A stretch of 64,000 bases of DNA from the human T2T-CHM13v2.0 reference genome, Homo sapiens, in assembly GCF_009914755.1 (NCBI RefSeq), contig NC_060928.1. One strand, 5' to 3'. The notes under the pieces are model-generated. The model saw only the letters and a list, made by a program, of their open reading frames with translations. It had not been told where the DNA came from and made no database searches. Positions within the stretch are counted from its first letter, which is position 1. Each line of letters starts with the position of its first letter. Position numbers and translations under genes: made by a program. Positions 27,735 through 55,910 of the stretch are shown one piece after another.

Positions 27735-29561
27735 TCTCAACCATGCACCAAGGTGTAAGAGTCTCTTTTCTGAGAATAAGGCCCTGAGCTCTTTGTCCTA
27801 CCTCCATGAAGCTTAAGGAGCATGGACACCAGGTGAGGTTGGAGCAAAAGTTTCATAAGTTGAAAGAAAGCCCTCTGTCAGCAGAAGGGGGGGGGGTCCT
27901 GAACAGGGTGCCCCCAATAAAGCTGGGCTCCAGGGTTTTTATGGACTAGAAAGGGGAAGGGAATGTGCTTAGTCTGTGAGCCATCTTGGAGAACTTATGA
28001 CTTAGCTTGGCCTGGGACCCTGGCCTGGGACCACTCAAAGCTTGGCCAAAGACCAGTCAGGAGCTGAAGTGATGATTCATAGAGGCTGCTTAGCTTGGCC
28101 CGGGACCTATCAGGAGTTGAAGTGATTAATAAAGGTTGACTTTATGGTCCAGAAAAAGGAAAGTAGAGTGCCCACCAGAGCCCACTGTGCCTATGCCCAC
28201 AAAAACTTTTTCCTGGGAACCTGCTGACGATACAAAGGATGAAAGCATTAAGTTCTGGGATACGTGTACAGAACGTGTAGGTTTGTTACATAGGTATACA
28301 TGTGCCATGGTGGTTTGCTGCACCCATCAACCTGTCATTTACATTAGCTATTTCTCCTAATGCTCTCCCTCCCCTAGCCTCCCACCCCCCAACAGGCCCC
28401 AGTGTGTGATGTTCCCCTCCCTGTGTCCATGTGTTCTCGTTAAACTCCCACTTATGAGTGAGAACGTATGGTGTTTGGTTTCCTGTTCTTGTGTTAGTTT
28501 GCTGAGAATGATGGCTTCTAGCTTCATGTCCCTGCCAAGGACATGAACTCATCCTTTTTTATGGCTGCATAGTATTCTGTGGCGGCATATACCTGCCACA
28601 TTGTCTTTATCCAGTCTATCACTGATAGGCATTTGGGTTGGTTCCAAGTCTTTGCTATTGTAAATAGTGCTGTGATAAACATACATATGCATGTGTCTTT
28701 ATAGTAGAATGACTTACAATCCTTTGGGTATATACCCAGTAGGGGGATGTCTGGGTCGAATGGTAATCTGGTTCTAGAACCTTGAGGAATCGCCACACTG
28801 TCTTCCACAATGGTTGAACTAATTTACACTCCTACCAACAGTGTAAAAGCATTCGTATTTCTCCACATCCTCTCCAGCATCTGTTGCTTCCTGACTTTTT
28901 AATGTTCGCCATTGTAGCTGGCTTGAGATGGTATCTCATTGCAGTTTTGATTTGCATTTCTCTAATGACCAGAGATGAGCTTCTTTTCATGCTTGTTGGC
29001 TGCATAAATGTCTTTTGAGAAGTATCTGTTCATATCCTTCACCTACTTCTTGATGGGGCTTTCTTGTAAATTTAAGTTCCTTGTAGATTCTGGACATAAG
29101 CCCTTTGTCAGATGGCTAGACTCCAAAAATTTGCTCCCATTCTGTAGATTGTCTGTTCAGATAGTTTCTTTAGCTGTGTAGAAGCTCTTCAGTTTAATTA
29201 GATCCCATTTGTCAATTGGGGCATTTGTTGCCATTGCTATTGGTGGTAGTCATGAAGTCTTTGCCCATGGGACAGAGGTATTTCTATGCTAAGCCTTGTT
29301 CGTGTATCTGAGTGATTCTGGAGGTTCGTACAAGTGTTTATCCAAATGGGCCCAGAGGTCTTTCTGTGCAGCTGTGGGCATGTCTCCAGGCACAACACCC
29401 TGTGCTTGTTCCCTTATCGGTACCTGCGGCTTGAGTTTTTTCCCCGGCTGCTTTTTGTTATGGGGATGAGCCACTGACCCATAGGCCGAGGGCTCTCTGG
29501 GGACCCTTCCTTTCCCTTCCCTTCCCTTCACTATCTACCTAAGGCAAGCTAACTCCTTTCA
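27735..29561 (-). mobile_element. Solo ERV1-class LTR interrupted by L1PA
   Basis: Minus-strand start TGAAAGGAGTTAGCTTGCCTTAGGTAGA at 29561. LTR-like halves at 27735-28250 and 29269-29561. Absent from the paralogous L1 at 14150. Subfamily not assigned. Confidence 0.65.
28250..29268 (-). mobile_element. 5'-truncated L1PA (L1PA7/8-like), about 1 kb
   Basis: GGTTTGCTGCACCCATCAAC 3' UTR; ORF2 end FITALFTIAKTWNQPKCLSVIDWIK (ORF 28524..28808). Confidence 0.92.
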
Positions 29562-29599
29562 CTATGAACATACATACGCATGGGTCCTTATGGTAGAAA

Positions 29600-29950
29600 T
29601 GGTGCAGGGCAGATGAGCCCCCAAATTAGGATACAGCCCAGGAAGATTCCTAGCTTCTAGGAATGAATTTGAGGGTGAGCGGTGGTGGTGGTAGATGGCA
29701 ACATTATTGACACGGCAGTGCACAGCGGCAGGAGAGGTACAGCTCCTTGTGGAGCGGGGCTTACCTTTCAGTGCTGGGCTATTGTCACGGAAAGGGATGG
29801 CCACTGCTGGGTGTGGCCATGGCAATGGTAAACTGACATGGCATAGCAGGCATGTCTCATGGAAAGCGGCTTCTGCCCTGTTTCAGCTAGTCCTCCATTA
29901 GGTCCTGTGTCCAGGCTCTGCCTCCAGAACTGAGGCCTCCCTCCTACCTA
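29600..29950 (-). mobile_element. Solo ERV1 LTR, paralogue of 14191-14651
   Basis: TGGTGCAGGGCAGATGAGCCCCCAAATTAGG...GAATTTGAGGGTGAGC; AGAA-like TSD; same L1 insertion point as at 14190. Confidence 0.75.
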
Positions 29951-32900
29951 AGAATGACTTGTATTCCTTGGTATACCTGATAATGGGATTGCTGGGTTGA
30001 ATGGCAATTCTTTTTCCAGTTTTTACGGACTTGACACACTGCTTTCCATAAAAGCTGAAATCACTGAGACTCCCAAAAGCAGTGGATGAGCTCTCCCTTT
30101 ACTTGGCATCCTTGCCAGCATCTTCTGTTTTGACTTAGCCACTCTGAGAGATGGCATCTCATTGTGACACTGAAATTCTGACCACCCAGCAATGAACAGG
30201 GGGCAACAACACTGAGACCATGGAAACGTCCTGCTTTTCACCAAACTTTCCTCACTTTATACTTCTGAGGATTCTTCTAGTCAATATCATGATTACAAAG
30301 CTGCTAACTTCACTACCCCTTCCAGTGCATTACTTCTTGCTCTCATTAGAGGGGCAAAAAAGCCCATAGTTGTCACAGAACAGCGTTGGATATTGACTAA
30401 ACACAGGACAAATGTGTTCCAAGACTTGCAGAACTATAAATCTATGAAGTACACAAAAAAATCAGTTGAAAGCATTAAATATGCAGCTTTCTATGTTAGT
30501 CATGCCTAACTGAAGTAGTTTTAAAGCCAAATGAACCAATCCATGCCACCAAGTAAAACAAGTGGATCATGCAAAAAATTGTGCTTGCTCATGATGAAAA
30601 TGGTTCCCTATATACACTAGCTTAACTTTTACATACACATACTTAACACACTATTTGGGGGAAGCAACCTTAAACACTTGAAACAGCAGAAATAGACAAA
30701 ACAATTCTAAATGGAAACAAAGTGACTTGTTTCTATCCCAGAGTCAACCCATAAAGGTCTCAGGTTATTAAGAACTTTGAAAAGTGTCTTGAATATTAAA
30801 AATTGTGTGTTTGGGGCAGAGATATTAATGATATTAACTGGTATTAATGGTAACTGAAATGTTTCCATTTTCAAACATGAGTCTCTATCTCAATCCACGA
30901 AGCAGGCACTGGCTGAGGGTCCTAGGCTAACAATATGCAAACCCATCAGCGTGCATGGCCTGTAAGCAGGGTGAAGATGACCAGAGGTCAGTAGTCAGTG
31001 CATTGACAGAGTCTTTCTGCCATTAAGTACCATACATGTGCCCTTGGTGCTGGTGCTCCATTTCCATGGGAAGCTTTATTAGACCTTGTTTCTGTGAACT
31101 CACTTGGTGAACTAGATATTACCTTCAAGGTATAGGGGTGGAAAATTGCAAGCAGGGGGCAAGAAGAATGCACTGACGTGCCCTTCCTGCTTTTCTGGAT
31201 CCAGGCTCTTCTACCATGAAGCTGGAGGTAAACAAAACCACCTCTGCCTGCAGGGAGACATCTGCAGACCACACACCATCTGACTCCATAGGCTGCCTTT
31301 GGAGATTGCACTGTCTCTTCCCCAGCCCTTGCTGTGATTCTGTCCCGGGAGGCCAGCAAAACCTCTGGGGCAGAAGTCATCACTGCAGTTGTGCAGACTC
31401 CCTCAAGGACAGCAGCAGACTCTACCCAGGGCAGGCATCCCTTTTCAGAAGAGCCACTTCAGGAGGATCTGTCTCCTCTGAACTTCTCAGACACTTCCCC
31501 CCTTGTGCACTACAGACTTCTTTTGTAATGACTTCTGGGAATATCCTTTTTTGATTTGGGTGGCCGAGGGCAAACAGGTGCCTATGCATCTAATTTCTGG
31601 CTTTTGATGCTCAGCTGTAACGGGGTAACCGGCCTTCAGTGTCCAGATGAAACAGGTTAACTGGCAGTTTTTGAGGGTCATGGGGGAATTGGAGTCTTCT
31701 AAGGTTTTGGGGTACTCACTGCCTTCTGCTTTTGGGCAGAGTGCTTTATCTTGGATGGTTTGTTCTCCTTCACTGACGTTCCTGGTAAAGCAGTTGTGCT
31801 TGGTGGATTAGAAGCCTGCTTTTGACCCTCTTTGGTGTTTACTAATACTTGTTTGAACTTGGGATTTGCTTATTCTGTCTCTGGAGTTCCACTTATTTCC
31901 TGCCTTCTCTATACTCAAAAGTAGAGCTTGAACAAGAAAGTCTTTTCTACCTCCTAATGCTGGTTGGTGTTTATTTTAGGCATTCTTAAATCTCCAGGTA
32001 TTGTCCACCACCCAGGTGCTTTTCTTATGACCTGGGGTAGAAACCCCAAAAAGACGTGTATTTATCTCTGAAGTCTTTGCTCATGCAGGAAGGCTTTCAT
32101 GGAAAAGAGGATGGCAGTGTTGTACAGCTGGTGGTTGGAGTCCTGTCTAGAGAAACCTGCCATTGGGTCTGGGTTAGTGTATTTTGCAGTGTCACAGACA
32201 GCACAGTGGCTGTGAGGTGGGTGTGGCTAGGCAAGATGTCCCAGCCCAGAATGCTGTCAGATCTGCAGTGATAGTACTTGGTCTACTCATGGGAGTAGGC
32301 TCTTGGCAGGCTTTTTGCAGAGCCAAGATGGTAGAGATGGCCCTCAGCTGCCTTCTGGTATGTCGGTGATAGATCAGGCTGTAACAAGCAACTCATTGGA
32401 TAAATGTTTCTTGACCAAAATGGATCTCAGCAACATCATGGAAAATTGTTCAAATGATATTTTAATATAAGTGCAGCCCAGGAGAGGGCTTTTTTTCTTG
32501 GTCATAAAATGGTCTATAGAAAGTCATAACAATTCTCATCCTCCAAAGCCTTTAGTGTTCAACTCGTCATACCAGTTAGCCATCTTTGCCTATGAGTTAA
32601 ATGTTAACATGTTCAAGTTAGGGTGCCTCCTTTGGGGAGAAGTCCTAGGTCTCCCACTTGGTGGTGTTGAGGTAGCTACTTAAGCCCAAGAATCTAGACA
32701 AAGGACCCAGATGGGGAAACACATGTCTCTGAACCTGTTTGAGAGTCTGGCAATGCAGCCAAGAGCCCAGTGGGTGGAAGGTTCAACTGCTGCAGCTGCT
32801 TAGTGTGTCTGTCACTCAGGAGCAGGAGCAGGTGCAGGGTTACTTCTGGACTTGTGCAGCACTTGCAGGGAATGAATACAGTATTGACTGCTTTGGTTTC

Positions 32901-33889
32901 CTTGTCTCCTGTTCCTAATGTAGAAAGTAATATGAATTCCTCCATGGAAACACTAATGATCTCATGGCACTTGAGGTCCTTCAGAGACTGACTCCCGTCT
33001 GACCTCTGCTGAGTGATCTGGATCTAGAACCCAGCTGTTTGTAGGTACAGAGCCAAACATATGGTAGCAGTGTGCTTGGAGGTGACACCCCATCAGGTGG
33101 GTGGGTCCCAGGCATCCTCATCCTTCACTGAGTAGAAGTGCGATATGGGAGCTTCTGGGCTAGTGTCCTGAGGCAAGCATGGGGGAAAGCCAGCGCAGTA
33201 GTGCCTGAACTACTCTGTATCTTAGGCTCCTGTGAGGCTTCTAGATTTCATTTCATGTGAGTGTTGTATGACTCAGGGATATCACTTCCATTTTTGTGCA
33301 CACTCAGTGTCAGCAAAGGCCTTGGTACTTTCTACAATGGCTGTGTGGTTCTCATTGGCTTGTGTGAGGGTTAGACTTAAGATAGAAGAAGGCTGTGCCC
33401 CTGCCCATGACTAAGGTGAAGTACATCCTCGGGACACACCTGGACTGCCCTTGACTATGGGGAACATTCCTCACCCGAGTCATACTACTGTGGCTCCTGG
33501 TTTTCATTCCAGCACCCAACACATCAGGTGTGACCCCAAGTCAAAAGAGGGGTCAGATTGGTCTCCCAACCTTAGTTAGCAAGATGTCACCATGTGATCC
33601 CTGTATTAGTGTCCCCAGTTGAGAAATAGTAACACCAAACTCACTTATCTTCATGTCTGTATACAGACCCTTGTAGGCAACAGTGGACAGCAAAGGGCAG
33701 TGTTTTAGGAGACTGAGGGAACAGGTTGAAGGTGGCTTACTTCTCAGCTCTGGGCAAGGAGTTCCAGCAGCCGTGGTGAGGCTTTATGCTTCAGCCAGAA
33801 GAACTTTAAACTTGAGCATTTACTTGTGTTCACAAAAGCCTGCAAAGGCTTCATATTACATACATAACTGGTGTCAAAGCTGCTAACCA

Positions 33890-34090
33890 GGTCAAACTAT
33901 TTAGCTTTGTACTGAGTTTTTTTTTTTTTCTGGATACTTCATTGTGGGTGGCTGTCCTCATTGTAAAATGTTTAGCAGCATGATTACCTGTTGTATTAGA
34001 TGTCTTTAGCACCACCTGAGTCGACAAAAATGTCTAGATATGTCATGCTGTTCCTGGGAAGAGAAATCTCACAGTTGAACAGCAAACTAG
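33890..34090. mobile_element. MER20 in copy C
   Basis: GGCTGTCCT...ATGTTTAGCAGCAT...ACAAAAATGTCTAGA at the equivalent site. Confidence 0.7.
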
Positions 34091-34861
34091 GTTCCTCAAG
34101 GAACCCCCAAGTGTGTCTTGGCAGTTCTCCCATTGGGTGTCTATGGGTGAAGGGCTTGGTTGTCTGTGGGCTGTGCTGCCTCCTGAACATGCCACATTCA
34201 TCTACCACGTCAAGTTGTGAATTTCTGCAAATTTTCATGTTTTTGTAAGGTGACTTAAAAAATCTCAAGCCAGTAGTAGGGGTGGGGGGTGGACGAGTAG
34301 TAGAGCCTGGGCACTGAAAGACTGAAGTTTACCTTCAGTGAGCTGCCTCTACTCTGTGTACCCAAACCTCTTTTTCAGTATTTGAAAGCTGGCTTCAGAT
34401 GAGTTTATCTACCTGATCTTAAATGTTGCCTGATTAGAACTGCCCATATGACCTGCAGGAATATTGATAAAATTGACATGGAAAAGTTTGCTGCATACCA
34501 TTGTATAATCACCTATTCTCACGTGCCCAGCTGTGCCAGACTCCAGCCTTCAACTCTTGTTTAAATTTGTCCCTTGACCGTGAAGGAGGTAAATGTCACA
34601 AAATTCCTAACACTGCACTCACTTTTTCTCCTCAGACTGGCAGATAGAACGAAGATCAAGTTCACAAAGGTTCTGGAGGAAGACTGGATTATGCTTGGGG
34701 AGGTTCAGGATGCTGGCATGTTCTTTTGATTAAGCAATAGCCCTCACCCTTTACAGAGCTGACATGATAGTGAAGGGTCTCTGAAGAGCAGCTGTTTGTC
34801 ATGAGGCAGTGAGAGTTGTCAGAACTCCTCCATGATATGACTTGCTCCAGGCCATGGAGTG

Positions 34862-34862
<1 letters not shown>

Positions 34863-34903
<41 letters not shown>
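34863..34903 (+). repeat. Poly(T) run, 41 nt
   Basis: Direct observation. The paralogues read GAATGCTTTCCTGAAC (about 11033 and 13165). Confidence 0.95.
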
Positions 34904-34904
<1 letters not shown>

Positions 34905-37109
34905 AGCTGCTCTGATTTTCTGGTATTCTAACCTCTGATTGTTCTTCCGTGCATCTGTGCAGACCTGTGGCAATATGGATTGGTATTAATGTCACTTGAG
35001 TCAAGTGTGATGATGTCTCCAATACTTGTTCTCTCCTTAGTCCGCCTGACCTTTGGTATTTGAAGGGAACTCTAATACTAGCAGGAAAGACTGAGGAAAA
35101 GAGGGAAGTAAGGACTTACTATGGAAGGCTTGTGAATTGCTTCTTTCTTAGGGGGAAGATACAGAATATGTCTATTGGATATTTAACCCTAATGACAGAT
35201 CCTGCATAGGCAGGGCTGGATGGGGCCCTGTGGAGTCTTGGACAACTGGTCATCAGAAATTCCTGCCAACAGGGTTGTTTCCTGGGCTGTGACTCAATCG
35301 GGTGTCCTGCAGTGTCCCCAACAGCACTGGGGCCAGTGTGAGGTGGGTGTGGTTGAGTGTGGGATTCTATCTGGGTCCTGGCTGAGCTGTAGTCGTGTGG
35401 GGGCTGGGATGAGAGGTCTACTTGTGGTACTGGAGGTTTCACTGGCTTGTGCTAGAACTAGAAAAGAAGAAAGAGACAGCGATTGGCTAACGCATGGCAG
35501 TAGTGGGCCCCAAGGCCCTGAGTAATAAGAAAAAATCATTAGATAAATGTCTCATGACCAAAACAAAGTTCAAACACTAGGTGCAGCACAGAAGGGTTTT
35601 CTCTGGTCATAGAATCTCTTAAAAGGGAATCATGACAGATTTTCTTGGCTTTAAGTCCTTTATTTAGTTCCCTCTACCAAGTGTATCTTTTAAAGCCTTG
35701 TTAAGGAAGAAAGCCCAGATCTCCTGATGACTCCTTGATGTCCAAGGAGCTACTTACCCCAAGAACGAGAATGTAGACCAGGACAGATGTAGGAGAAAAT
35801 GACTCAACTGCTCCGAGGTACTGCAGTAATAGAGCATGAGACTTTTGGTTGGAATGTGTCATTGCCATGGATAGTTCGGGCTTCTGCAACACTTGCAGAG
35901 AATACTTTTGGATTCTGTGGTTTTTTTAGAATCCTTCATGACTTGTCCCTTCACACAAGTTGTACAAATCCCTTCATAAAAAATAACTGGCACTGTAATC
36001 TCACACCATGGGCAGTTCTTCAGGGACCAAGGCTCATGTGTGACTGCTGCTCAGTGACCGAGCTTGTCCTAGAGCCTATAATATGGTAGCAGTACACTTG
36101 GAAGTGACACCCCATCGCCAGGTGGCTGCGTTCCAAGTGTTGGCAGCTCACTGACAGTGGGAGTATGGGAGCCTGTGGGTGTTTGCTTGGGGCACGCATT
36201 GGGGCAGGCAGGATGACTGTGTCCTGCTTTGTGTCCTCTCTTGTGAGGCCTCTTCTAGGTGGCTCTGTTCCATGTCAACATCTGCCTCAACTTCTTCCGA
36301 GACAACCGTAACCTTGGATAGTAAACTACATTACCTCTCATTCTAGTTCTTTACTCTTTCACTCAAGAATGCTTCCAAGTCTCAAGTTTCCCAGTTCTTC
36401 AGAGGCTTAAAGGCAACCTTTAGCTTGAGGAATCCAACTTAAGGTTTTAGGAAATGACAGATGTAAATGTAAATAATCCCAAATGCATGGCAATGTCAAA
36501 CTTGCAGCTGAGATCACCTCACAGTTGGAGGTGTACATCTCATTCCATCTGAATTCAAGCAGACATACATTACATACACCAGGAGAGTTATGTGGAGGTA
36601 CATACAGAATAGTCAGTGGCACTTGGAACATAATAGCTGACTGTACTGGCAAATATGAGATGGCTGTGTGCTCACACGGACCTGACAGTTGACCTTTCAT
36701 CTTACAAAATGTATGACTCACAGTCCATCATTGGTCATTTGGACAGTCACACTTGCAAAAAGGTTCTGGGTACTTATTGCCATGACTGTGTCATTGTTGG
36801 CAGGTGTATGGGGTCAACTTGAAGGCTTCTGGCCTACCCATGAGTAAGATGAAGTACATCCTTAGGGGGAGGCATCTGGACTACCCTTTGGAGTGGAAAC
36901 CAATTATTACCCTAGTCGTAATGCCAAAAATCCTTGTTTCCTGCCATATTGAAAAGCCTGATGAGAGGACCTTTCTGTTAGGGAAGGGGGATATGCACTT
37001 GTGCATAGTTTTTCTAGTGGGTGACTTAAGTGCTCCATTTTCTCTAGCCATTCAGCTCTGCCTGAGCTGATCTTCAGGAATTTCTATTGCCATGTTAGAC
37101 CAGACATTG

Positions 37110-40100
37110 CCACCACAGTTGTATGAACTCCCTCAAGGAGAGAGCACTGAACTCTTCCAGGGCGGACAACTCAGAAGAGCCACTTCAGGAGGATCCATCT
37201 CTTCAACCTAGACATTTACCCCTTGTCCACCTGACTCTTTGTAATGACTTCTGGATTCTGTTCTCAGCTGTGCTGGGAATACATCTTGATTTGGCTAGGG
37301 TAAAGGCAAGCAGGCACTTGCACGTCTAATTTCTGGCCTCTGGTCAGCTCCAGGTGTTGGACCTGGGCCCTGCAGTATGTCCTGGTGAAGCAGGTTAACT
37401 GGTGGCAGTCTTAAAGGTAATGGGGGAATTGGTATGCTAGGTTTTGGGCTGTCACTGCCTTCTGCCCTATTCCCTTGGCAGAGAACATCATCATCACGTG
37501 GGACAGTTCTTAGTCCCCTTCACTGATGTTCCTGGTAATGCAGTTGTGCTTGGGAGTTAGAAGCCTGCTGTCCCTGTTCAGTTTCTACTGACAATTGTTT
37601 AAATCTGGGATTTCCATGTTTTTCCCCTTGACTTCTGGAGTTCACTCCTTGCCTCTTGGCTTCTTCATAGTCAGAAGGGGAAGCTTGATCAAGAACAGCT
37701 TTTCTAACTCCTAGTGCTGGTCAGTGCTTCTGCGGGTATTCTCAAATGCCCTGTATTGTGCAGAATCCAGATGTTTTTCTTATGGCATACAGTAGAAACA
37801 CTAAGGCCAGAACTGTCTTTGTCCCGGACGTCTTTGCTAACGTAGGAATGCCTGCATGGGAAAGAGAATGGTGTTGCACGGTTGGTGATTAGAATCCTGT
37901 GTGTAGAAAGCTGCCAGTAGCTGTGGGATTGAGTATCCTACACTGTTGCAGATGGCAAGGGGCCCAGTGTGAGGTGGGGGATGACGGGAATCTGAGCCGC
38001 CTGGTTTTCTAACTTAAATCTGGCCTTTCTGTACAAATACTTTATAACACTGTTTCTGTGCCTACTAGAACGTTTGCCTGGATGGGACTTCACAGCACCT
38101 AGCTCATACTGAGCAGTTATAAACAGTTACCTGATGTTTCATGGCCAGGAGCTCACTTTCTAAGGCCCAGTAACATGCTTAGAGATAGCTAGTAGAAGGC
38201 TTATCTGAAAAAGGTGCAGACTTAGGCTAGTATATTAGGGGTGTGCAATATACCTTTTGCTATGGAGTCTGCTAGAGAGCACCCGTGACATCCTCTCCTA
38301 CCATGGATGTAATCCCATAAGAGACAAGGCAACAGCTTAGACCAAAACTAGCTGTGGAGCCCTCATTTGCTTGGAGTCCTCCTCAGAACTTTTAGCCATT
38401 TGAGCCCAGAAAAATGGTTTGAAGTAGTCGAGTGTGATGTATGCTTTCTCTGAAATCCAAAAAATCCTACCTATTTTGAAAGTACACTTCATGGTAGGAG
38501 AAAAAGATGCAAGAAATTCTCCCATAATTTCGAAGTTGGAAGTAACGTCCCTGCATTCCTTAGATAACTAAAAACATCAGTGATGTCACTGAGCCCCTGG
38601 GCTTATAAGTTTCTCCCTGTCTCTGGCGCACAGGTGTTCTCCAGGGTACTTCCTACTTTCCTGTTGCCCAGGTCTGACTTAAGTGATACCAGTAAGTGAC
38701 CCAGCAGGCTCTTCTGGGGAATGTCAGCATAATTGAGACCTCTGCAAATGATATTGGGGCAAAGATCAGGAGAGTTACCTTGAGAGTGAGACTGAATGTA
38801 TACTTTTTCCCATTAAAAAGAAAACTGATAGTGGACCCTCAATGAGGATGAATGAGAGAATGTATTTTTCCAGAATGGCACTAAATGCCAGAAGGGGTAG
38901 TTATTCACCAAGATATACCATAAGTTGCATGAAAGCCATAATACATACTTCATAGTACACTCCCATCTGACATGGGACTCCAGAAGATTAAAGACCAATT
39001 TCAAAAATGCAGTCAAATATAGAATGACATCCCTTCCATACTTAAAACTCCAGAATAGGCACATGAAAGAAGATCCCTGCCCCACTGATTTACTCAGTTT
39101 GAACCAGTGATCAGTGAGGCTTTCTGTGTTTGGCATTCTTCTGACCCCAAGTCCAAGTAACAAGTGTTTCAGAGGGACCATTCTAGGACTGTTTTGAGCC
39201 CTTGGAGCAGCTGTCCCAATACTTTGGGGGCAGGGTATTTTTACTGGTATAAAAACATTCACATAGAAATCCAAGTTTCTCTAGAAGTGGTGTCCTAGCC
39301 CAGGATGCTGTCTAGATGAACAGTCGAGGAGTGACCCACTAGCTTCCCTTAACCAGTGCCCAGGCCTGTGAGATGCCAGGAGCAACCACAGGGAGAGATG
39401 GCAATGACAGCAGCAGGACTTCTTGTTGGGTCTGGTGCCTCATGAACATGCCACATATCCATCCACCACCTCCAGTTGGGAGAAATGTCTTGCCAGAAGT
39501 AGGTCCTTCTGCCAGTCTTCACACATTCTTCATAGCTAGAATGACTTAGAATGCTCAAGCCAGTGATGGAGGGAAAAGGCAGAGCCTAGGAATGAACACT
39601 CCAGAGCTTAGGTTCAGTAAGCCACCTCCACTCAATGTATGCAAGTCTTATCATAGGGCTTGAAAAAGATAATTTCAGGGGGAAAACTCACTGGATGTTT
39701 TTCTAACTTCTATGATCTTTGATGTTACCTGATACTTGTATTGCCCCAATATGATCTGCAGGTGTGTTGATTATACCCTGGTATGCAACAAGATCTTCAA
39801 GGTACCAAGTCACCTACATTCATGCCCAGAAGCTGTTGCAGACTCCAGTCTTCAACTCTTCCTTAAATTTCTGTCCCTTATCCTAATGTTGATTGCCACA
39901 GAAATCACTGAAGCTCCATTCACACCTGTCCCTACTCAGACTGTGGCAGACAGGAATGGAGATCAAGTTCACAAGTCTACCTGTAGGATTGTATGATGCT
40001 TGGGAGGTTCAGGATGCAGGCAGCATGTTCTTAGCAACAGTCCTTGCCCTTTACAGAGCAGACAGGTGAGTGAGGCTCTCTAAAGAGCAACTGTTTGCCA

Positions 40101-40910: not shown

Positions 40911-41049
40911 AGTGAAAGGCTTCTATTTTGTAGAGAGGAACCTTACCAGCCCAGATACCATGTTGGGAAAACCACCAGTCCTTTATTGCTATATGTAACT
41001 GAAAGCAATAGAATTACATGAAGACTAAAACCCTTCATACTGAATATCA

Positions 41050-43620: not shown

Positions 43621-43902
43621 TGTCATATCCCATTTGGCTTTGTTTCTCCATTTCTGCTTCCCAGAAATGTTGGCTAGAATCAAGTGTCCCCAAACTGATA
43701 ATGGGAGAATATTCTACTTTCAATAAATTGTTTTACTTTGTCTAAGTCTCATTTCTTAAAACTCCACAAAATGAGTGTTGAAAGATCTATAACTAGGTGT
43801 ACCTTAGATGTCATGAGATTTAAGTCCTATGCTGGAAGAAGTCCCAACTCATTTGTTCACTGGGACAAAATGCCTGCCCAAGTTTTGGGTTTCTACACCT
43901 AC

Positions 43903-44407: not shown

Positions 44408-44779
44408 CCTATATAACTCATGTCAGTTACTGCACTTGTGATGGTATACCCCTTCCTCTTAGCAATCTACGTGCTCTTGAGGGAACAGTTCTGATGTGTC
44501 ACCCTATCCTTAGGCTCACATTCCTTGTAGGGACATGTGGCTGCGAACGTGCTGTTTTTCCGTGGAAACCCCCCATGGATAATCATAAAGGAGAGAATGA
44601 CATTTTCTTAAGCTCTACCTTGCTTTGCAATCCTTGGTTAAGCCTCACCCACATGTGTTGTAGAAACTGTCCTGATCTCCCAAGGGTGGTGCTTCCAAAG
44701 CTAGTTTGCTTTTTCCCAAAGGAGGGTCTGAGCATGGGGAGCAGTGGTGGCCACCATCTGAGCTCCTGCTGGATGACCT

Positions 44780-45700: not shown

Positions 45701-47236
45701 AGGATGTGTAAGAAGTGCAGAACTGAACGTGGGAGGATTTAAATCTGTCTCCTGCATTTGCACCTTTCTCTTCTCCTTTGTCATCAATTGCCCTTCTGGT
45801 GAGTGGAACCCTCTGGATGACACCTGAATACCAGTCAGTTGATTAGCAAACTGTTCTCATAGGTTCCCTTAAATTCCCCCTTGGCATGTCTCTTTACATC
45901 TTTATAGGTTCTAAGGATTAGGACAAGGGTGTCTGTGTGTGTCAAGAATCTGCCTACTTACCACTGGCACTCTACAAGGAGGTGACTTTTCACACTTGTG
46001 TGAATGTTTTAATACATAGCAACTGTTGAATCTTACTACTGTGTACCTCCATACAGCTTAAGGGAAAATGACCTGAAGTCTGTAATTTGTTAAACTTAAT
46101 TCTTATTTCCTCCAGAAATTGAGCTCTAAGAACAGTCCATGTCTCACTCATTTGAACAACAGATACTTCCGATCATCCCTTCCCCAGTGATGACAATGGT
46201 GTTCTGGGCTTTGATTTCTTTCTACCTCCAAAGCATCTGAAATCTTGATCTTCAAAGTCATAGTGACTCTTGGTCTCTGCATTACTCTTCATGCACACAC
46301 TTCCTCAGCTTTCAGCACCAGAGGACACCTTGTGGCAATGCAACTGCCTCTGAGAAGGGTGACTCCTCCTCACAGCACTTCCAGCATATAGCTTTTGCCT
46401 GAAATCTGGTTCCCGACGATGAGGAATAGGTAGGACCAAGTCCTGCTCCACACCCAGGTCCACATAATTAGGTCAATGCATGATGTGCACCTTCTCCTTG
46501 CATTGGCTGTCTGTCGTTCTTGGTCCCTTGCCCTGACTTTTGTCACATTCACATCTCCATGTAGTAATGGATGGTTGGATGCAGAAGCTGGATGTTTCTT
46601 GACTTGCACTTCAGAATGAACCCTTTCTCTTGCCCTCCTTTGCACATGCTGTCTCCCTTCTGCCATGGGATGACATAGAAGATGCTTGCCATATGTGGGT
46701 CCCTGGACCTTGGAATTTCAGTTGTTGAATTCCTAATGCTATGCTTTCTGCTATAGTCCTTACTACTTGAGGGGGAAGATGGTCCGAAGTCCTTACCACC
46801 ACATAGTTCTTGGGAGCTGCACTTCTGGTTTGTGCCTGTCCTGCTGGGCTGATAACAATTGTCCAGCCATGAGAACTTCTAATCAGACCAAGCATACTAA
46901 GAATTTATTTTGGACAGAATTAGCAATACCCTTCTATATAAAGTTACTGCAAGAATATGGTGGCTAAAACACCTGTTCATTTGGAAACCAGTGGTAACAT
47001 ACGTCAGCATCTCATTAGGTCCAGATGAGTCCTTGGTGCTCAGAGCCTCCTGGTGTAGAGTACTGCTCGGCTTCCAGTGAGCAGCTCTGCAGTGAAAGTG
47101 TATGTGCTCAGGGCATCCTTAATGTTGCCACTGTTTCACGTTGCTCCAGACATGCAGGATAACTCCACCTGCAGCAGGCTATGTTTGGCAGCCCAGTTCC
47201 AGAGAGTGAATCAACTGAAGCTCCACTCCTTGCAGT

Positions 47237-48376
47237 TATAAACCAAAAAGTATGAGACAATTCTCAGTCAACTTAGTTTATTTTTCCAAGGTTACAAGAC
47301 ATGCCCAGGAGGAAGAAACAGACTCACAGCCTCTGGTCTGTGCCATTCTTGAAAGAGGAAAAGCGGGCTGGAGGGAGAAAGGTGAGGATATTGGTAATCA
47401 ATACGTTGTAAGAGAAAAGGAGCAGGTAGGGGATAGTCAATGGCACATCCCTCTTGGACTCAGTAAATAAGCACTTTACATATGACAAGACAAATACAGA
47501 ATAGGTACCTGTGTAGAGATTTACCTTGTTATCTCTAGCTATCTGCTTTTAGGGACAAAAGGAAAGGCAGCTTTGTTCCCGGAACCAAGCTGGGTTCAGC
47601 TGCGTTTTCTCATGGCCCAGTGAGAAGCAGACTGACTAGCAAAGACTGGAATTTATTGTTGTAACTGGCTACAGGGAGAAGGTTGGAGATAATTTCACCA
47701 GACCAACTCAGTGTTACAATTTTCTCAGCGCTTGTATAGGCTGGGGTTATTTGCCTTCCTGCGGTATGGCATTCACCTAATTCTATGGGTAACTAATTGT
47801 TTCAACTAGAAGGTCAGAGGCCAAAAAAACGCTTTCAAGTCTGATCAAGCTGTGAGGGCCCCAGTACCTTCAAGGCCTGTCTCCCTAAATTCTACTTAAT
47901 TGAGGACCTTGGTACCGGAGTGATTATTTCTATTTTACCTCATTTGCAGTTTGGTCCGGAGAGCTGCCTTAGACTCTCCAATACATCTATTCACACAGCT
48001 GCCTCTGTTAACTTGACTCGTCTGATGTCATCGAGCCCAAGACAGGTCCTGGCAGAAGAAATGTAAGGCTGTCTCCATTATGTTGACTTGCTCCTGGTTT
48101 GGGAGAAGCCTGTGTAGGGCATATGTTTCATTTTTGGCTTTAATACATGGGCATCCATTTCCCTGGGTTTAATTAGCTTTATATTAAAGCAGTGCTGTGG
48201 AAATTTTTAACTGGGGTGTTATACAGGCCTGTCTGCTGGTTGCACAGGCCCGTCCATGTGGCGGTCAGGGAGAATTGGCCTGCCACAGAATCATGCGTGA
48301 CTTGGCTATTGGCTTAAATTTTTCTGGTGGGGGGGCATAGCAAATTGGGGTCCTGGGTTTTTATTTTCCTTTCACA
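47237..48376 (-). mobile_element. MER41-like solo LTR split by a nested LTR
   Basis: TATAAACCAAAAAGTATGAGACA..AGTTTATTTTTCCAAGGTTA and end TTTATTTTCCTTTCACA. Confidence 0.75.
47574..48287 (-). mobile_element. ERV1-class solo LTR (same family as 52291-52971)
   Basis: TG..CA termini; minus-strand start TGTGGCAGGCCAATTCTCCCT; collinear with 52291-52971. Subfamily not assigned. Confidence 0.78.
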
Positions 48377-48522
48377 TAGCTTACCTACATAGCTTACAGA
48401 GAGGCCGGTACCCAACCCACCCCCTGCTCAATTCTATCAGGACTTGGCAAAGTGCCTGTGCATGAGAAGAGCTGAACAAACCCTTCTATGACTAGATAAG
48501 GAACAGCTGCCTTGTCACTATC

Positions 48523-48956
48523 TGTGTTAGTCAGGGGTCACTAGAGGGACAGAACTAATAGATGTATATATAAAGGGGAGTTTATTAAGGAGCATTACCT
48601 CCCACAATTGCAAGGTCCCACAATAGGCCCTCTGCAAGCTGAGGAGCAAGGAAGCCAGTCCAAGTCCCCAAGCTGAAGAACTTGGAGTCTGATGTTTGAG
48701 GGCGGGAAGCATCCAGCATGGGAGAAAGATATAGCCTGGGAGGCTAACCCAGTTGAATCTCTTCACATTCCTCTGTCTGCTTTATATCCTGGCCATGCTG
48801 GTAGCTGATTAGAGGGTGCCCTTCCAGACTGAGGATGGGTCTGCCTCTCCCAGTCCACTGCCTCAAATGTTCATGTTTTCTGGCAACACCCTTATAGACA
48901 CACCCAGAAACAATACTTTGAATTCTTCAAGTTGACACTCAGTTTTAACCATCACA
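48523..48956 (-). mobile_element. MLT2A solo LTR
   Basis: TGTGTTAGTCAGGG..CTAGAGGGACAGAACTAATAG..AACCATCACA; collinear with 43903-44407. Confidence 0.9.
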
Positions 48957-49839
48957 GTTATCATAAGCCTGGTACACTGGCCCCAATCCTCTATATGACC
49001 TCTGCTCATTGGGACTATCCAAGGCTAAGGAGTACTAAGGAGAATTGTCTCTTTGCCCAAAGACATCAAGACTGAGGACAGTACTCACTGATGCTTAGGA
49101 ATTGATGTGTCTGCAGTGTTAACTGTGTAATCTAAATTTGCATGGGGCTCTGTTTCTCTCCCTCTAGACTGTTGAGCAGAACAAATTCTATTGAACTGCT
49201 ACTCACCTTGGAAGGAGCAGGTATCTCCTTCTCGTGACACTTAAATCTGCTCTTGCAGATTCTCAGGTCAATGCAGCATCATCACCTCACCCAGAGGTAA
49301 AAGACTGAATGCAGAATGCATTGAATGCACCAAATGCAGAGTGCTGGGAGCTTCTGCCTTTTCCTCTTCATGGATTGGTATCAACTGAATGTTCTTATCC
49401 CAGAACATCGAGAGATAGTGGCAGTGGTCATTGTCAACATGAGTATTAGTTTTGTTATGTAGGATAATTTCGATATAATTGTTGTACTTCTACCTTAATA
49501 GCTGTATAATATCCAGTAAGGGAGTTTCCAGGGTACTGAGGATACCACGGGAAGGTTTTTCATTGTATACCTAATTTCTTCCACAGAAAATTGAAGTAAA
49601 GACCTACCTTTTGTGTAAGGTTTAATAATTCATGCTTTGGTATTCATGTATTCACTGGAAACTTAGATTGAACACTGGATAATACCCACATCTTTATTTG
49701 GTAAGGGTAAGAAGATACACAGCTGTTTTCCTTGATCATGCTTCCCAGGGAAAGAATACTTCTGAGGCTTCTCATATGAAACTAAAGTGGCTTACTGGAT
49801 TTTTCTGAAAAGACTGAGAGAACAGAGTATCTGTACAAT

Positions 49840-50290
49840 TTTGTTCCTGCTCTAACAAATGACCACCAAGTTTTAATCAAATCTGTATCTTCTCACAAGT
49901 TTGAAGCAGGTCTCATTTGGGTAAGATCATGGTGAGGGCAGGGTTTGTTCCTGTCTTGTTGCTTTGACGACCATTGGATTCTGGACCTTCCCATGTTTAT
50001 AGGTCCCTTCCATTGCTTGACTTGTGGGCTGTTGGTTCATGTGCAATTTCAGGACCCTCTTTCATGTCAAATCAGCGTACATTTTAAATCACTTTCACCT
50101 TTGTTTCTGCTTCTCTTTGTCTATAATTGTTCTGACAGTGGATCCTCCTGGATGAGACCTGGAATCTTAAATTCAGGGCTATGCAACCTTATTTCAATAC
50201 ATTTCCTTGTCTCCTTAGACATTCACATAACAGGTTTACAGGTCCTAAACATTAGGACAGATATATTTTGGGAGGTTATTCATCTGCCTC
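49840..50290. mobile_element. MLT1-type MaLR LTR remnant
   Basis: TGCTCTAACAAATGACCAC..GGGCAGGGTTTGTTCC..ACAGGTCCTAAACATTAGGACA..ATTTTGGGAGG..TCTGCCT. Confidence 0.6.
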
Positions 50291-51581
50291 CATCTGGTAC
50301 TTCGGGCTTTGAGATCATTTCTAACAGAGGAGGAGGATCTGGTGACAAGGTGGAGAGAGCCATCACTGAAGGGGTGGAACTACAGTGTTCACTGATGGGA
50401 GTGTAGGGCACTCAGTGGTACTGGGGCCTCAGGAAGTACATAATGTGGATATCACAGAGTTGGATTCTGGGGGCCAAGAGTCTCATTTTGTTCTGCTTGT
50501 CTGCCATGATCATTATAGCTTTGTCCTACTTCTGAGGCATCTATCCCTTGTGGTGCTGAGATGCGACTTTGCATGAAAAAGTGGACGAAGAGGATGAGGA
50601 TGCGGCCCAGGGCAGCCTAATGACTGGAATGTAACCACCAAGACACTCCATTCCATGGAAGTAGGAGCTCCATGCCCACAAAAGCAGTGAGATGACCAAT
50701 GGAACAGTTGGGAATGGATAACAAAAAATACGGAGCTCTATCCACAGATGACCTGTTACTTTGATCCTATTTCCCTACATAGTCCAAGGATCTAAAATGA
50801 GACCTATCTTATCTGCCAAATCTTCCTTACGTGTCATGAGTTGTTCCAAGGTGACTGTTGTGGAAGATAATGACAACCCACACCCCTGAGTACAGTGGAG
50901 GTTTAGGAGGTTTGGATCTCCACGTTTAAGTACTGCCAAGTGTGTCCTCCTGTGTTTCATTGCTACGTATCTCACTGTGTTAGAAATGGGATCGAAGATA
51001 CTTTTTCACACTTGCTTGTGAAAGAGATGCCTTTCTCCTTGAGCTGGTAAGAAGGGTATGTATCTAATTTCAGGTTATTAATGTAACTTTTTGGTGATGG
51101 GTATCCATTCTCCCTTCTGACATTTTCCTGAGTTCCTCTGACTTGAGGGAGCCTAGCCAATGTCATGCTACTTCCTCTCATAGAAGCTTTGCCAGCTTCT
51201 GTGGGGTCTGAGCCGCATCACATGGGGTAGTGCTGGATACAACCTTGATCAGTTTGACTCTTACCTGTCAGACATTCCTGTTTGTGTCCCTATTGAGTTC
51301 ATTTTCATGCCAGAGTTTGGGATGATCCAGGTGAGGTTTCTTGCTCTACCTATGGGCTCTGATGGAGATACTCCATTTTATCTGCAGGGAGGTTCCAGTG
51401 GGTGTGAATGACATGGGCAATACTTACTGTGGGCCTGGCTCCCGGCAGTCGTCTTTCCCCACTGGCTCCCATATCCACAGTATTGTCAAGTGTTCAGTGT
51501 TCTCTGTAAAGTCTTTGAGTAGCTGAGGTTAAGGACTTAGCAACATAAATGCTGTGAGTAGATGTGACCCATTGGTAGTTC

Positions 51582-52058
51582 TAAAACTACCCAAGGGGTT
51601 CACCTTGCCTGCTGCCAGACAGGGGAATTGCAATAGAGAAAAAGTAATTCAAACAGCAGACTGTGAGGGAGACTGGAATTCTATTACTCAAATCGGTCTC
51701 CCCAAGCATGAGGGGAGCAGAGTTTTTAAGGATAACTTGGTGGATGGGGGGGAAGCCAGTGAGCCAGAAGTGCTGATTGGTCAGAGAAGAAATCATAGGG
51801 AGCCAAAGCTGTCATCTTGTGCTGAGTCAGTTCCTGGGTAGGGGCCACAAGATCAGATGAGCCAGTTTATTGATCTGGGTGGTGCCAGCTGATCCATCAA
51901 GTACAGGGTCTGCAAAATATCTCAAGTACTGTTCTTAGGAGCAGTTTAGGGAGGGTCAGAATCCTTGTAGCCTCCAAGACCGCTTGCATTTCAGAAGCAA
52001 GATGGAGTCAGTTAAGTTAGATCTTTCACTGTGTCATAACTTTGCAAAGGCGGTTTCA
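51582..52058 (-). mobile_element. LTR8 solo LTR
   Basis: Minus-strand start TGAAACCGCCTTTGCAAA; CCCAAGGGGTTCACCTTGCCTGCTGCC; 4-bp TSD GTTC. Confidence 0.88.
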
Positions 52059-52290
52059 GTTCCAATGTAACAGAGGAAGCCTTTCCCCTCTACTGACTTT
52101 AGGTTGTCTCTCTATGGTACACTAAGGACAGGGTTGGTGCTCAGTTTCTATAGTTATTGAGCACTGGGACCCATGAGTAGTGAGGTGACCTCTGCCTGTC
52201 CTGGACAATCCCATGGGTTGACATGGTGCCAGAATTGGGCCCGTGTACACTTTCTGATACTTCTCCCTAGAGGTTACTGTGTAGTATAAC

Positions 52291-52971
52291 TGTTCCTCGA
52301 ACAAGCTGGGTCTGGCTGCATGTCTTCATGACCCAATAATGAGAGGCAGACAAGGGAATTTATTGCTGTAACTGGGTACAGGAGAAGGTTGGAGATAGTT
52401 TCACTAGACCAACTCAAAGTGTTAACATTTTCTCAGTGCTTACATAGGTTGGGGTTATGTGCCTACGTGGGGTATTGCATTCGCCTAAGTCTATAGGTAA
52501 CAAATTGTTTTACCTAGGTCAGAGGCCAAAAAAGTCTCCAAATCGAATCAATTTAAGAGGGCCTCAGTACCATCAAAGCCTGTATCCTAAATTTTAATTA
52601 TTGAAGGTTGTGGTACTGAAGTGATCCTTTCTATCTTATTTATGATTTCATCCAGAGATCTGCCTTAGACTCTCCAATAAATCTATTCACACAGCTGCCT
52701 CTGTTACCTTGATTCCTCTGATTTCATTGACCTGAGGGTGGGTCCTGGCAGAAAGAATATAAAGCTGTCTCCATTATCTTGACTTGCTTCAGGTTTGGCA
52801 GAAGCCTGAGTAAGATGTATGTTTCAGTTCTGGCTTTGATGTCTGGGTATCAACTTCCCTGGCTTTAATTATCAGTTTAATGCTAAGGCAGTGCTGTGGA
52901 AATTCATCTGTGTAGCTGGGGTGCCATGTGGACCTGTCTATGTGACTGTGAGGGAGAATTGGCCTGCCACA
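52291..52971 (-). mobile_element. ERV1-class solo LTR (same family as 47574-48287)
   Basis: TGTTCC..AAGCTGGG..GAATTTATTGCTGTAACTGG..GGAGAATTGGCCTGCCACA. Confidence 0.78.
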
Positions 52972-53178
52972 TGATGATTCAGGCTGTAATTGTAACTGCA
53001 GCCGTTTTAGAGCATTAATCTGTCATAAGATTAGAGTTCTCACCCCTCTGAATCTTTTTATATTAGAATTGATCTCCACTTCAACCACTCCGACAATGAG
53101 ACACTTAACCTTTTTATATTTATCAAACTACTAGAAAGTATCCTCAAAACATTTACCACTATGATACAACTTTGTCAC

Positions 53179-53675
53179 TGTTAAACAATATTCAGTGGTA
53201 CGCATTAGTGTGCACAAGGAGGACGTTAGTAGGACCACCATGATGGATGCTGGGACTAGTGCAGGGTGTCTCATGGGGAGAGATCAGGTTCAACTTTGAA
53301 CGCAGCACGTGCCAGTGGGAACTTACAGCTGAGAAGCAATGTGGGGTCAATGGATGAAAAATTACCAATAGGAATCCTCGGAGGTAAAAGGTATTCAGGC
53401 TTCACAGATCCAAAAGCATTGCTAAAGACCAGCCAGAAAAATGAGACATCATTTGAGGGGGATGGGAGAAGATGAGGAACATGAACAGATACCAACTCTG
53501 GGGACTTCCTGCTGAAGGAACTTAGTTCTTTGCTAAAACAATATAATAAACTACACAGAAGGTTCAGAAGCTTGACTCCAGTTTGGTCAATCCCAAGGAT
53601 CTTGATCACTACCCATAACTTCACTGTTAGGTTTTTTTGAAGGGATATTGGCAGCATTACCCCCTTCTCATACAT
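53179..53675. mobile_element. Probable LTR remnant, family unassigned
   Basis: TG start; GGGGAGAGATCAGGTTCAACT..GGGGTCAATGGATGAAAAATTAC resembles old ERV LTRs. Confidence 0.45.
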
Positions 53676-53677
53676 AA

Positions 53678-54101
53678 CTGCTACCAAAACACCAGGGGTT
53701 TGGTCTAGGTCCTGCTGCTTGCAGCACAGAAATCGAATCATTAAGACAGTATTGCCAAGGAAGGCAGATTTATTCAGATGCTACAGCTGAGGAGATAGGA
53801 GATAAATCTCAAATTCATCTCCCTGACTAAAACTAGGTTTATATAGCAATGACGAAATGTAACTGGGTAAAACAGGAACTTGAGAGAAGTAAGGAAGCAC
53901 TCATGGCTAATTAGGGCGGCTGCATATCTCATTGTCGGGATACAGGGATCCGGTAACTTTCAGTTCCTTGATACTACTTGAAGCTTGAGGCGTCTCTTCA
54001 TGAGGAAGGAATCTCAGATAAATGTAACTTTCAAGCTTTAAGGCCGGAAGGGTCAATTTATATGTTGGCTCAAACTCAATGGGACTATTGGGTCTGTTTG
54101 A
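53678..54101 (-). mobile_element. MER57-like (MER4-group) LTR
   Basis: TGCTACCAAAACACCAGGGGTTTGGTCTAGGTCCTGCTGCTTGCAGCACAGAAA. Confidence 0.65.
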
Positions 54102-54799
54102 GAACCTCGACTAGATGAGATGTGGAGAACTTTCTTTAGATTTGCCTTGGTGCCTTAAGCAGCTGTATGTTTCTAGAAGTCCTCCTGATTCAGAGATAGC
54201 TTTTGTTGGCTCCACTTTACCTTCAACCCACCCAAGGTAGAAAATCAGGAGAAGGTACATTACCTGTTAGCTGAAGGCAGTTTGGGGAAGAGACCAGCTC
54301 CTTTTAAATAAGCATAGCAGTCCCTCACTGAAGCTGAACTCGTTGTAACCCTTACCCCCAGAACATTGCAGACTAGCATTCAGAAATGTATTCATTATCC
54401 CTCCTTGGATTTGAGCTGCCTCTTAAATTAAACACCTATTAAACTGCATAGGGATGCCTGATCCCTAAGCAGGGATATACAAGTTCATGCATAAAGTCTG
54501 CATTGATATCTAAACTTAGTGGGGGCTGCAGAAGACTCTTCCTGGACTTACCTCAAAGGGTCATGTCTTTATTCAAGTTGAATGATGAAGAATCATCTGT
54601 GTGCTCTTTCACTTGGCTACAGTCATGCAATTTTATTCTGCCCCATAGGTTAGTTAAGTGGAATTGATGAGTGATCTCCAGGTTTATGCTCTTAAAAAGG
54701 AGGTAACTTTTCTTCCCTCTGTCATCCTGATGGGACCAACAGCCCCCCGCCGAACTATCTGGGAATGTTAGAACAAAAGGGGAGGAGTATGACTTTAAG

Positions 54800-55910
54800 G
54801 TTTTTCTTTAAATTACTTCAAGTTTTGGGGTACATGTGCAGAAAGTGTAGGTTTGTTACATAGGTATACACATGCCATGGTGGTTTGCTGCACCCATCAA
54901 CCCATCTACATGAGGTGTTTCTCCTAATGCTATCCCTCCCCTAGCCCCCCACCCCACAACAGACCCCAGTGTGTGATGTTCCCTTCCCTGTATCCATGTG
55001 TTCTTTGTTCAACTCCCACTTATGAGTGAGAACATGCAGTGTTTGTTTTTCTGTTCTTGTGTTTGTTTGCTGAGAATGACGGTTTCAGCTTCATCCGTGT
55101 CCCTGCAAAGGACACGAACTCATGTTTTTACAGCTGCATAGTATTCCATGATGTATATGTGCCACATTTTCTTTAGCCTATCATTGATGGACTTTTGGGT
55201 TGGTTCCAAGTCTTTGCTACTGTGAACAGTGCTGCGATAAACGTACGTGTGCATGTGTCTTTATAGAATGATTTATAATCCTTTGGGTATATACCCAGTA
55301 ATGGGATTGCTGGGTCAAATGGTATTCCCGGTTCTAGATCCTTGAGGAATTGCTACACTGTCTTCTGCAATGGTTGAACTAATTTATACTCCCACCAACA
55401 GTATAAAAGCGTTCCTATTTCTCCACATCCTCGCCAGCATCTGTTGTCTCTTGACTTTTTAATGATGGCCACTCTAACTGGTGTGAGATGGTATTTCATT
55501 GTGGTTTTGATTTGCATTTCTCTAATGACCCAGTGATGAGCTTTTTTTTTCATGTTTGTTGGCTGCATAAATGTCTTTTGAGAAGTGTTCACATCCTTTG
55601 CCCACTTTTTGATGGGGTTGTTTTTCTTGTAAACTTAAGTTCTTTGTGGATTCTGGATATTATCTCTTTGTCAGATGAATAGATTGCAAAAATTTTCCCC
55701 CATTCTGTATGTTTCCTGTTCACTCTGATGGTAGTTTCTTTTGCTGTGCAGAAGCTCTTTAGTTTAATTAGATCCCACTTGTCAATTTGGGCATTTGTTG
55801 CCATTGCTTTTGGTGTTTTAGTCATGCAGTCTTTGCCCATGCCTATGTCCTTAATGGTATTGCCTAGGATTCCTTAAACAAAAATTAACTCAAGATGGAT
55901 GAAAGACTTT
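54800..55910 (-). mobile_element. 5'-truncated L1PA (L1PA7/8-like) with short 5' inversion
   Basis: ORF2 end [35 protein letters not shown]. 55880-55909 AAAAATTAACTCAAGATGGATGAAAGACTT is sense-strand upstream L1 sequence. Confidence 0.92.

What the first reader, a model, noticed from the sequence alone, without database searches (positions are those of the whole stretch)
28250..55910. Excess of 2-5 bp deletions at short repeats: possible transcription/TOP1 mutational scar
Comparing the two L1PA copies directly shows repeat-unit losses: TTTATAGTAGAATG (about 28698) vs TTTATAGAATG (about 55260); GTATCTGTTCA (about 29022) vs GTGTTCA (about 55584); GCTTCATGTCCC (about 28521) vs GCTTCATCCGTGTCCC (about 55088); CTGTTCAGATAG (about 29153) vs CTGTTCACTCTGATGGTAG (about 55716). 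Both also appear to lack one unit of the TCTTCTT and GATGATG I remember in the L1 consensus. Established: topoisomerase 1 causes 2-5 bp deletions at short repeats in highly transcribed DNA (ID4-like signature). Inference: long-term intense germline transcription of this locus, which would independently support the piRNA-cluster idea.
Basis: partly seen in the sequence, partly recalled or inferred. Interest (0 to 1): 0.7.

Follow-up and report, generated by a model that had tools for sequence, protein, structure and literature searches.

The report
Deletion scar in oocyte piRNA cluster
Old repeats and gene copies inside a major human egg-cell piRNA locus carry about four to five times more short deletions per base change than their sister copies elsewhere in the genome, likely because heavy transcription in oocytes lets topoisomerase 1 clip out short repeat units, which would help explain why such loci evolve so fast.

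Summary
The two L1 copies carry 7 and 10 deletions of 2-5 bp per ~1.1 kb; 56 sister copies average 1.2 (maximum 4). Five ERV/LTR-like pieces show 27 in 3.7 kb against 12 in 15.8 kb of paralogs, and DPPA4 retrocopies 36 against 1. Per substitution the excess is about 4-5-fold for the repeats. 1-bp deletions and 2-5 bp insertions are normal; deletions over 5 bp are also raised about 6-fold. Short tandem repeats are depleted across the window.

The window lies in the known, fast-evolving oocyte piRNA cluster piC-ZNF518B-WDR1 (280 kb, + strand). The best reading is a transcription-associated, TOP1/ID4-like germline deletion process acting in oocytes.

TOP1 itself is not shown. The motif is no richer than in control deletions, there is no strand bias, and RAF1P1 shows no clear excess. 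The process class and the cluster are known; I found no paper linking the two. Rare-variant and phased de novo indel data would decide it.

The parts
1..64000 (+). Interior of oocyte piRNA cluster piC-ZNF518B-WDR1 (Human-Cluster64, 280 kb, + strand), about 52-116 kb from the WDR1 5' end; short tandem repeats depleted
   Evidence: PMC10964541 Table S6; hub gene table; GC skew +0.039, AT skew -0.069; tandem-repeat O/E 0.86 against control median 1.39
28250..29269 (-). L1 3' fragment A: 7 deletions of 2-5 bp plus one of 6 and one of 7 bp; tail eroded
54820..55870 (-). L1 3' fragment B: 10 deletions of 2-5 bp
1..5830 (-). Decayed endogenous retrovirus interior (gag and integrase domain fragments); scored stretch 3396-4983 has 13 deletions of 2-5 bp and 3 larger ones, against 2 in six paralogs together
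43895..44410 (.). Dispersed repeat (LTR-like; family not determined): 3 deletions of 2-5 bp
47573..48290 (.). Dispersed repeat (LTR-like; family not determined): 5 deletions of 2-5 bp
48519..48962 (.). Dispersed repeat (LTR-like; family not determined): 1 deletion of 2-5 bp, no excess on its own
52290..52970 (.). Dispersed repeat (LTR-like, same family as 47573): 5 deletions of 2-5 bp
15640..16678 (-). Unannotated DPPA4 retrocopy (tandem duplicate): 12 deletions of 2-5 bp against the parent exons
30831..31832 (-). DPPA4 pseudogene LOC100129344: 10 deletions of 2-5 bp against the parent exons
37101..37579 (-). Partial DPPA4 retrocopy: 3 deletions of 2-5 bp in 175 aligned bases
62889..64000 (-). 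RAF1P1 (runs past the window end): 5 deletions and 3 insertions of 2-5 bp in 938 aligned bases, no clear excess

Best explanation
The locus carries a several-fold excess of deletions of 2 bp and longer, likely left by transcription-associated, topoisomerase-1-type mutagenesis during heavy transcription of this piRNA precursor in oocytes. Shown here: the excess in three independent element classes, normal 1-bp deletions and insertions, about 1.3-2-fold more substitutions, and window-wide loss of short tandem repeats. Published: the locus is among the most expressed oocyte piRNA clusters and evolves fast; TOP1 makes 2-5 bp deletions in transcribed DNA, including the human germline; non-dividing neurons gather ID4 deletions; female mutation rates rise with expression. 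Inferred: arrested oocytes transcribe the precursor over long periods, TOP1 nicks twice a few bases apart, the strands realign on a repeated base or unit, and the loss is inherited; over tens of millions of years this erodes every insert.
For: L1: 17 deletions per 130 substitutions against 67 per about 2,650. ERV/LTR-like pieces: 27 per 428 against 12 per 901. In pure pairwise alignments the ERV piece has 15.2 gaps against 1.8 in its partners. DPPA4 retrocopies: 36 distinct deletions per 504 mismatches against 1 per 278. Pooled per substitution: 2-5 bp deletions 3.6x, 1-bp deletions 0.9x, 2-5 bp insertions 0.9x. L1 deletions sit at repeats or microhomology in 14 of 17 cases (null 8.4, p=0.004) and at tandem repeats in 8 of 17 (null 1.75). 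Among repeat-context deletions only 4 of 41 are G/C-only (about 11.7 expected, p=0.004). 2-bp events are 30 of 80, close to the 41% in germline de novo data (PMC8866115 section 14). All 11 window tiles lie below the control median for tandem repeats, and so do 5.5-kb samples from the expected places of two other top oocyte clusters (0.62, 0.84). GC-binned controls give 1.17-1.44.
Against: The TN*T share does not differ from control deletions (12 of 17 against 52 of 67). No strand asymmetry: T-only 4 against A-only 5 in ERV/LTR pieces, 7 against 5 in DPPA4. Repeat context is not enriched in the DPPA4 events (20 of 36 without any, null 18.9) and is absent in 10 of 21 ERV/LTR events, though divergence blurs this. 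Deletions over 5 bp are raised 6.4x (16 against 9). RAF1P1 has 5 where about 13 are expected at the cluster rate (p=0.01). 2-bp events are not dominant as in RNase H2-null cells (82%). The L1 piece in the second chr4 sample has only 2 in 530 bp and appears to be another subfamily. Nothing here measures transcription, sex of origin or TOP1.
Confidence: 0.5

Rival explanations
1. Transcription-linked breaks (R-loops, stalled polymerase, TOP2) in oocytes are repaired by end-joining, giving small deletions of 2-15 bp without TOP1.
For: Deletions of 6-15 bp are raised as much as or more than the 2-5 bp class; many events lack a visible repeat; substitutions are also raised.
Against: 1-bp deletions and insertions are normal. 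The same tandem units were lost twice in two independent L1 insertions (6 shared substitutions, control pairs 4.9), which suits unit loss at fixed motifs.
Confidence: 0.24
2. A regional mutation process of 4p16 that is unrelated to the cluster's transcription (replication or recombination context).
For: Flanking regions were not scored here, so the edges of the excess are unknown. A/T-to-G/C differences exceed the reverse in 6 of 7 window elements, as GC-biased gene conversion would give.
Against: PMC10964541 reports lower phyloP inside the cluster than in its 10-kb flanks. Autosomal recombination hotspots are biased to insertions (PMC7615360 passages). There is no C>G excess in the L1 copies. 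Two other putative clusters also lack tandem repeats.
Confidence: 0.13
3. Selection favours deletions that degrade or diversify piRNA source sequence, with an ordinary mutation rate.
For: The recognisable inserts whose orientation was read are antisense to the precursor, so the locus content looks shaped by selection.
Against: A several-fold excess spread over many unrelated remnants would need very many selected events, and selection on piRNA sequence would not favour deletions over insertions.
Confidence: 0.06
4. Artefact: older or different subfamilies, biased controls, alignment choices or assembly error.
For: Controls were best BLAST hits, and window copies have 1.3-2x more substitutions. 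The ages of the DPPA4 copies are unknown, and the cluster copies share some history (4 of 36 events).
Against: Ratios are per substitution; gaps are one-sided; counts are stable across settings; genome-wide pattern counts match or fall below the control rate; 1-bp indels, the usual long-read error (my knowledge), are normal.
Confidence: 0.05

Closest known systems
ID4 / ID-TOP1 transcription-associated deletions (Reijns et al. 2022, PMC8866115; passages and section 14 read)
   Same: 2-5 bp deletions at short repeats and microhomology, T-spaced motifs, present in the human germline and rising with expression; similar share of 2-bp events as in germline de novo data.
   Different: That paper's germline section relates deletions to male germ-cell gene expression; the word oocyte does not occur in its main text. 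Here the signal is a fixed, locus-wide scar in a non-coding oocyte cluster, with 6-15 bp deletions raised too.
piC-ZNF518B-WDR1 oocyte piRNA cluster (PMC10964541; section 9, passages and parts of Table S6 read; PMC8437802 one legend passage)
   Same: Same locus; reported as highly expressed in oocytes of most mammals tested and as evolving faster than its flanks.
   Different: The main text reports phyloP only; 'deletion' and 'topoisomerase' occur 0 times. No mechanism or indel spectrum is given there. I did not read its supplementary figure files.
Female transcription-associated germline mutagenesis (PMC13439702; abstract, discussion and passages read)
   Same: Maternal mutation rate rises with expression in oocytes; fits the raised substitution rate here.
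   Different: It treats protein-coding genes; 'indel' and 'piRNA' occur 0 times.
ID4 accumulation in post-mitotic neurons (PMC11062076 and bioRxiv 10.1101/2025.03.03.641186; passages read)
   Same: Non-dividing, transcribing cells gather 2-4 bp deletions.
   Different: Somatic and not inherited; the disease-linked form is dominated by 2-bp events.

Membership tests
ID4 / ID-TOP1 | Excess of 2-5 bp deletions without matching excess of 1-bp deletions or insertions | tested here: met
   3.6x pooled (4.7-5.2x in repeats) against 0.9x and 0.9x per substitution
ID4 / ID-TOP1 | Deletions at short tandem repeats or microhomology | tested here: inconclusive
   Met in L1 (14 of 17); tandem repeats 7 of 21 against 2.4 in ERV/LTR pieces; not enriched in DPPA4 (16 of 36)
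ID4 / ID-TOP1 | TN*T motif enrichment | tested here: inconclusive
   Above random placement in L1 (12 against 5.4) and pooled (G/C-only 4 of 41 against 11.7), but equal to control deletions (52 of 67)
ID4 / ID-TOP1 | Excess confined to 2-5 bp | tested here: not met
   Deletions over 5 bp raised 6.4x, 16 against 9; PMC11062076 describes ID4 more loosely as deletions of 2 bp or more
ID-TOP1 of RNase H2-null cells | 2-bp events dominate (82% of 2-5 bp) | tested here: not met
   30 of 80; matches the 41% of normal germline instead
ID4 / ID-TOP1 | Rate tracks transcription | tested here: inconclusive
   Locus is a top oocyte cluster; tandem-repeat depletion in two other putative clusters; no flank or expression gradient scored
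ID4 / ID-TOP1 | Genetic dependence on TOP1 or embedded ribonucleotides | not testable with these tools
   needs oocyte experiments
Oocyte piRNA cluster piC-ZNF518B-WDR1 | Window lies inside the published interval | tested here: met
   GRCh38 chr4:10,117,120-10,397,432, + strand; the window is 52-116 kb from the WDR1 5' end in a 280-kb cluster; no formal liftover was run
Oocyte piRNA cluster piC-ZNF518B-WDR1 | piRNA production from the window itself | not testable with these tools
   taken from PMC10964541; no reads available

The most novel reading that the evidence does not exclude
The most expressed oocyte piRNA clusters are the strongest maternal TOP1-deletion hotspots of the mammalian genome. 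Their own transcription in arrested oocytes erases captured transposons and pseudogenes several times faster than elsewhere, which would explain their rapid divergence by mutation rather than selection and give piRNA memory a built-in half-life.
Probability: 0.35. Interest if true: 0.85.

Novelty: new variant of a known kind. Interest (0 to 1): 0.64.

Why it matters
Why piRNA clusters keep their place but not their sequence is an open question, usually put down to selection or structural instability. A measurable, deletion-specific excess makes a mutational cause directly testable with existing population and trio data. It would also give a natural reporter of damage in human oocytes. It warns that repeat annotation and age estimates inside such loci are biased, because copies look older and fall below masking thresholds.

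Tried and rejected
Common origin or gene conversion of the two L1 copies: rejected, since they share 6 substitutions against a control-pair mean of 4.9 and their flanks do not align. Mismatch-repair or slippage defect: 1-bp deletions and insertions are normal. Maternal C>G process: C>G 0.55x and G>C 0.91x in the L1 copies, small counts. Strand-biased cleavage: none seen. RAF1P1 as confirmation: no clear excess, and no control pseudogene. Element-level test in other clusters: the chr12 sample had no scorable repeat. The chr4:80.6 Mb sample gave 2 deletions in a 530-bp L1 piece and a median 9-bp net shortfall over 843 bp in another repeat (first 20 of 39 full-length rows): inconclusive. Both samples were placed with recalled assembly offsets and are not verified to lie in those clusters. 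A double-deletion screen gave 4 copies genome-wide, one being copy A: too few to map other scarred loci. Flanking regions and a randomly drawn full-length L1 control set were not obtained, so the edges of the excess and an unbiased whole-element background remain open. Literature searches found no paper joining piRNA clusters to TOP1/ID4 or to a short-deletion excess; the library lacks most subscription papers.

Full report
Observation. All quoted motifs are present, and the two L1 3' fragments align at 84% with 42 gap bases. I fetched the 30 best loci for each copy, dropped the two self loci and two duplicates, and scored 56 controls and both window copies against the control majority. A has 7 and B has 10 deletions of 2-5 bp; controls have 67 in 60,175 bp, with variance equal to the mean and a maximum of 4. 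1-bp deletions (0.9 per kb) and insertions are the same as in controls. Non-CpG substitutions are 6.7-6.9% and 5.5-5.7% against 4.4%. The counts hold under five alignment settings. A and B share three unit losses but only 6 substitutions (control pairs 4.9), so they are independent insertions that were hit at the same motifs. Genome-wide pattern counts put two of these losses at 6.4% (187 of 2,908) and 1.6% (3 of 190) of copies. The anchors of these patterns differ slightly, so the figures are approximate.

Extent. The excess is not confined to L1. A decayed ERV interior (gag and integrase domains on the minus strand) and four LTR-like pieces were compared with 20 paralogs. They show 27 deletions of 2-5 bp in 3,672 scored bases against 12 in 15,805, with no 2-5 bp insertions and twice the substitutions. 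Pure pairwise alignment agrees: 15.2 gaps in the window ERV piece against 1.8 in its partners. One of the five pieces (48519) shows no excess on its own. Four DPPA4 retrocopies in the cluster (one just upstream of the window) have 40 such deletions, 36 distinct, against the parent exons; three retrocopies elsewhere have 1. RAF1P1 is the exception: 5 deletions and 3 insertions in 938 bases, below the cluster rate (p=0.01). Pooled per substitution, 2-5 bp deletions are 3.6x, deletions over 5 bp 6.4x, 1-bp deletions 0.9x and 2-5 bp insertions 0.9x.

A test that needs no repeat library agrees. Short tandem repeats are at 0.86 of a first-order Markov expectation in the window, against a median of 1.39 (95% range 1.05-1.87) in 76 kb of masked control flanks. 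All 11 tiles lie below the control median, and 10 of 11 lie below the range. GC-binned controls give 1.17-1.44. These controls are L1 flanks and the bootstrap draws on only 99 pieces, so the range is probably too narrow. Two 5.5-kb samples from where I expect the TBX5-RBM19 and CCNG2-CXCL13 clusters gave 0.62 and 0.84. Their placement rests on recalled assembly offsets.

Setting. The window lies inside Human-Cluster64, GRCh38 chr4:10,117,120-10,397,432, + strand (PMC10964541 Table S6). This is piC-ZNF518B-WDR1, one of two syntenic clusters that give a large share of oocyte piRNAs in most mammals tested; it has lower phyloP than its flanks (section 9). A hamster paper calls it female-specific (PMC8437802, one legend). 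The window's base skews (G over C, T over A) fit + strand transcription, by my knowledge of transcription skews. The L1, ERV, DPPA4 and RAF1 inserts are all antisense to it.

Mechanism. TOP1 cleaves twice near an embedded ribonucleotide and the strands realign, deleting 2-5 bp at T-spaced repeats. Such deletions are the largest class of human de novo indels and rise with male germ-cell expression (PMC8866115). Neurons, which do not divide, gather ID4 deletions (PMC11062076; bioRxiv 10.1101/2025.03.03.641186). Maternal mutation rates rise with expression while paternal ones do not (PMC13439702). The window fits in size class, in the normal 1-bp and insertion rates, in repeat context for L1 (14 of 17) and in avoiding G/C-only repeats (4 of 41 against 11.7). 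It does not single out TOP1. Control deletions have the same TN*T share, which is expected if the background is itself largely TOP1-made but is no proof. There is no strand bias, the DPPA4 events show no repeat enrichment, and 6-15 bp deletions are raised. I give about 0.95 that the excess is real, about 0.75 that the cluster's transcription causes it, and 0.5 that TOP1-type realignment is the main route. End-joining at transcription-linked breaks is the chief rival. Recombination is unlikely, because autosomal hotspots favour insertions (PMC7615360 passages).

Novelty. The signature and the cluster are both known. Ten searches found no paper linking them, and the cluster paper's main text has no mention of deletions or topoisomerase. 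The library misses most subscription journals, and I did not read that paper's supplementary figures. I rate this a new variant of a known kind, interest 0.64: a large, cleanly measurable effect with an unproven enzyme, decidable from existing rare-variant and trio data.

Noticed in passing
window 5829-41000 and L071: An old tandem duplication (67-70% identity, very gappy) repeats a unit holding a DPPA4 retrocopy about four times. Only one copy is annotated, and all are antisense to the piRNA precursor, so they could yield piRNAs against DPPA4, though at only about 79% identity.
   Followed up: partly
window 1-64000 and L061: No match to the Alu copies of the control loci in 72 kb, and only 4% is masked. 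The chr12 sample likewise has almost no recognisable repeat in 5.5 kb.
   Followed up: no
window 28250-29269, 54820-55870: The extra substitutions in the L1 copies fall mainly at A/T bases (T>C 2.0x, T>G 2.6x, A>G 1.5x), while C>T and G>A are near normal. A/T-to-G/C differences exceed the reverse in 6 of 7 elements.
   Followed up: partly
window 28200-28250: The L1 A tail is eroded: 14 T in the 50 bases at the 3' end, where none of 56 controls has 14 or fewer (median 26).
   Followed up: partly
window 55870-55910: L1 B appears to end in a short inverted L1 piece, as 5' inversion would give (read by eye).
   Followed up: no
window 13861-14870, 29951-30166, 56900-56989: Further, more decayed L1 fragments in the same antisense orientation.
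   Followed up: no
window 47923-48772: The RefSeq cis-regulatory element overlaps two adjacent LTR-like repeats (47573-48290, 48519-48962); it could be an internal promoter or enhancer of the cluster.
   Followed up: no
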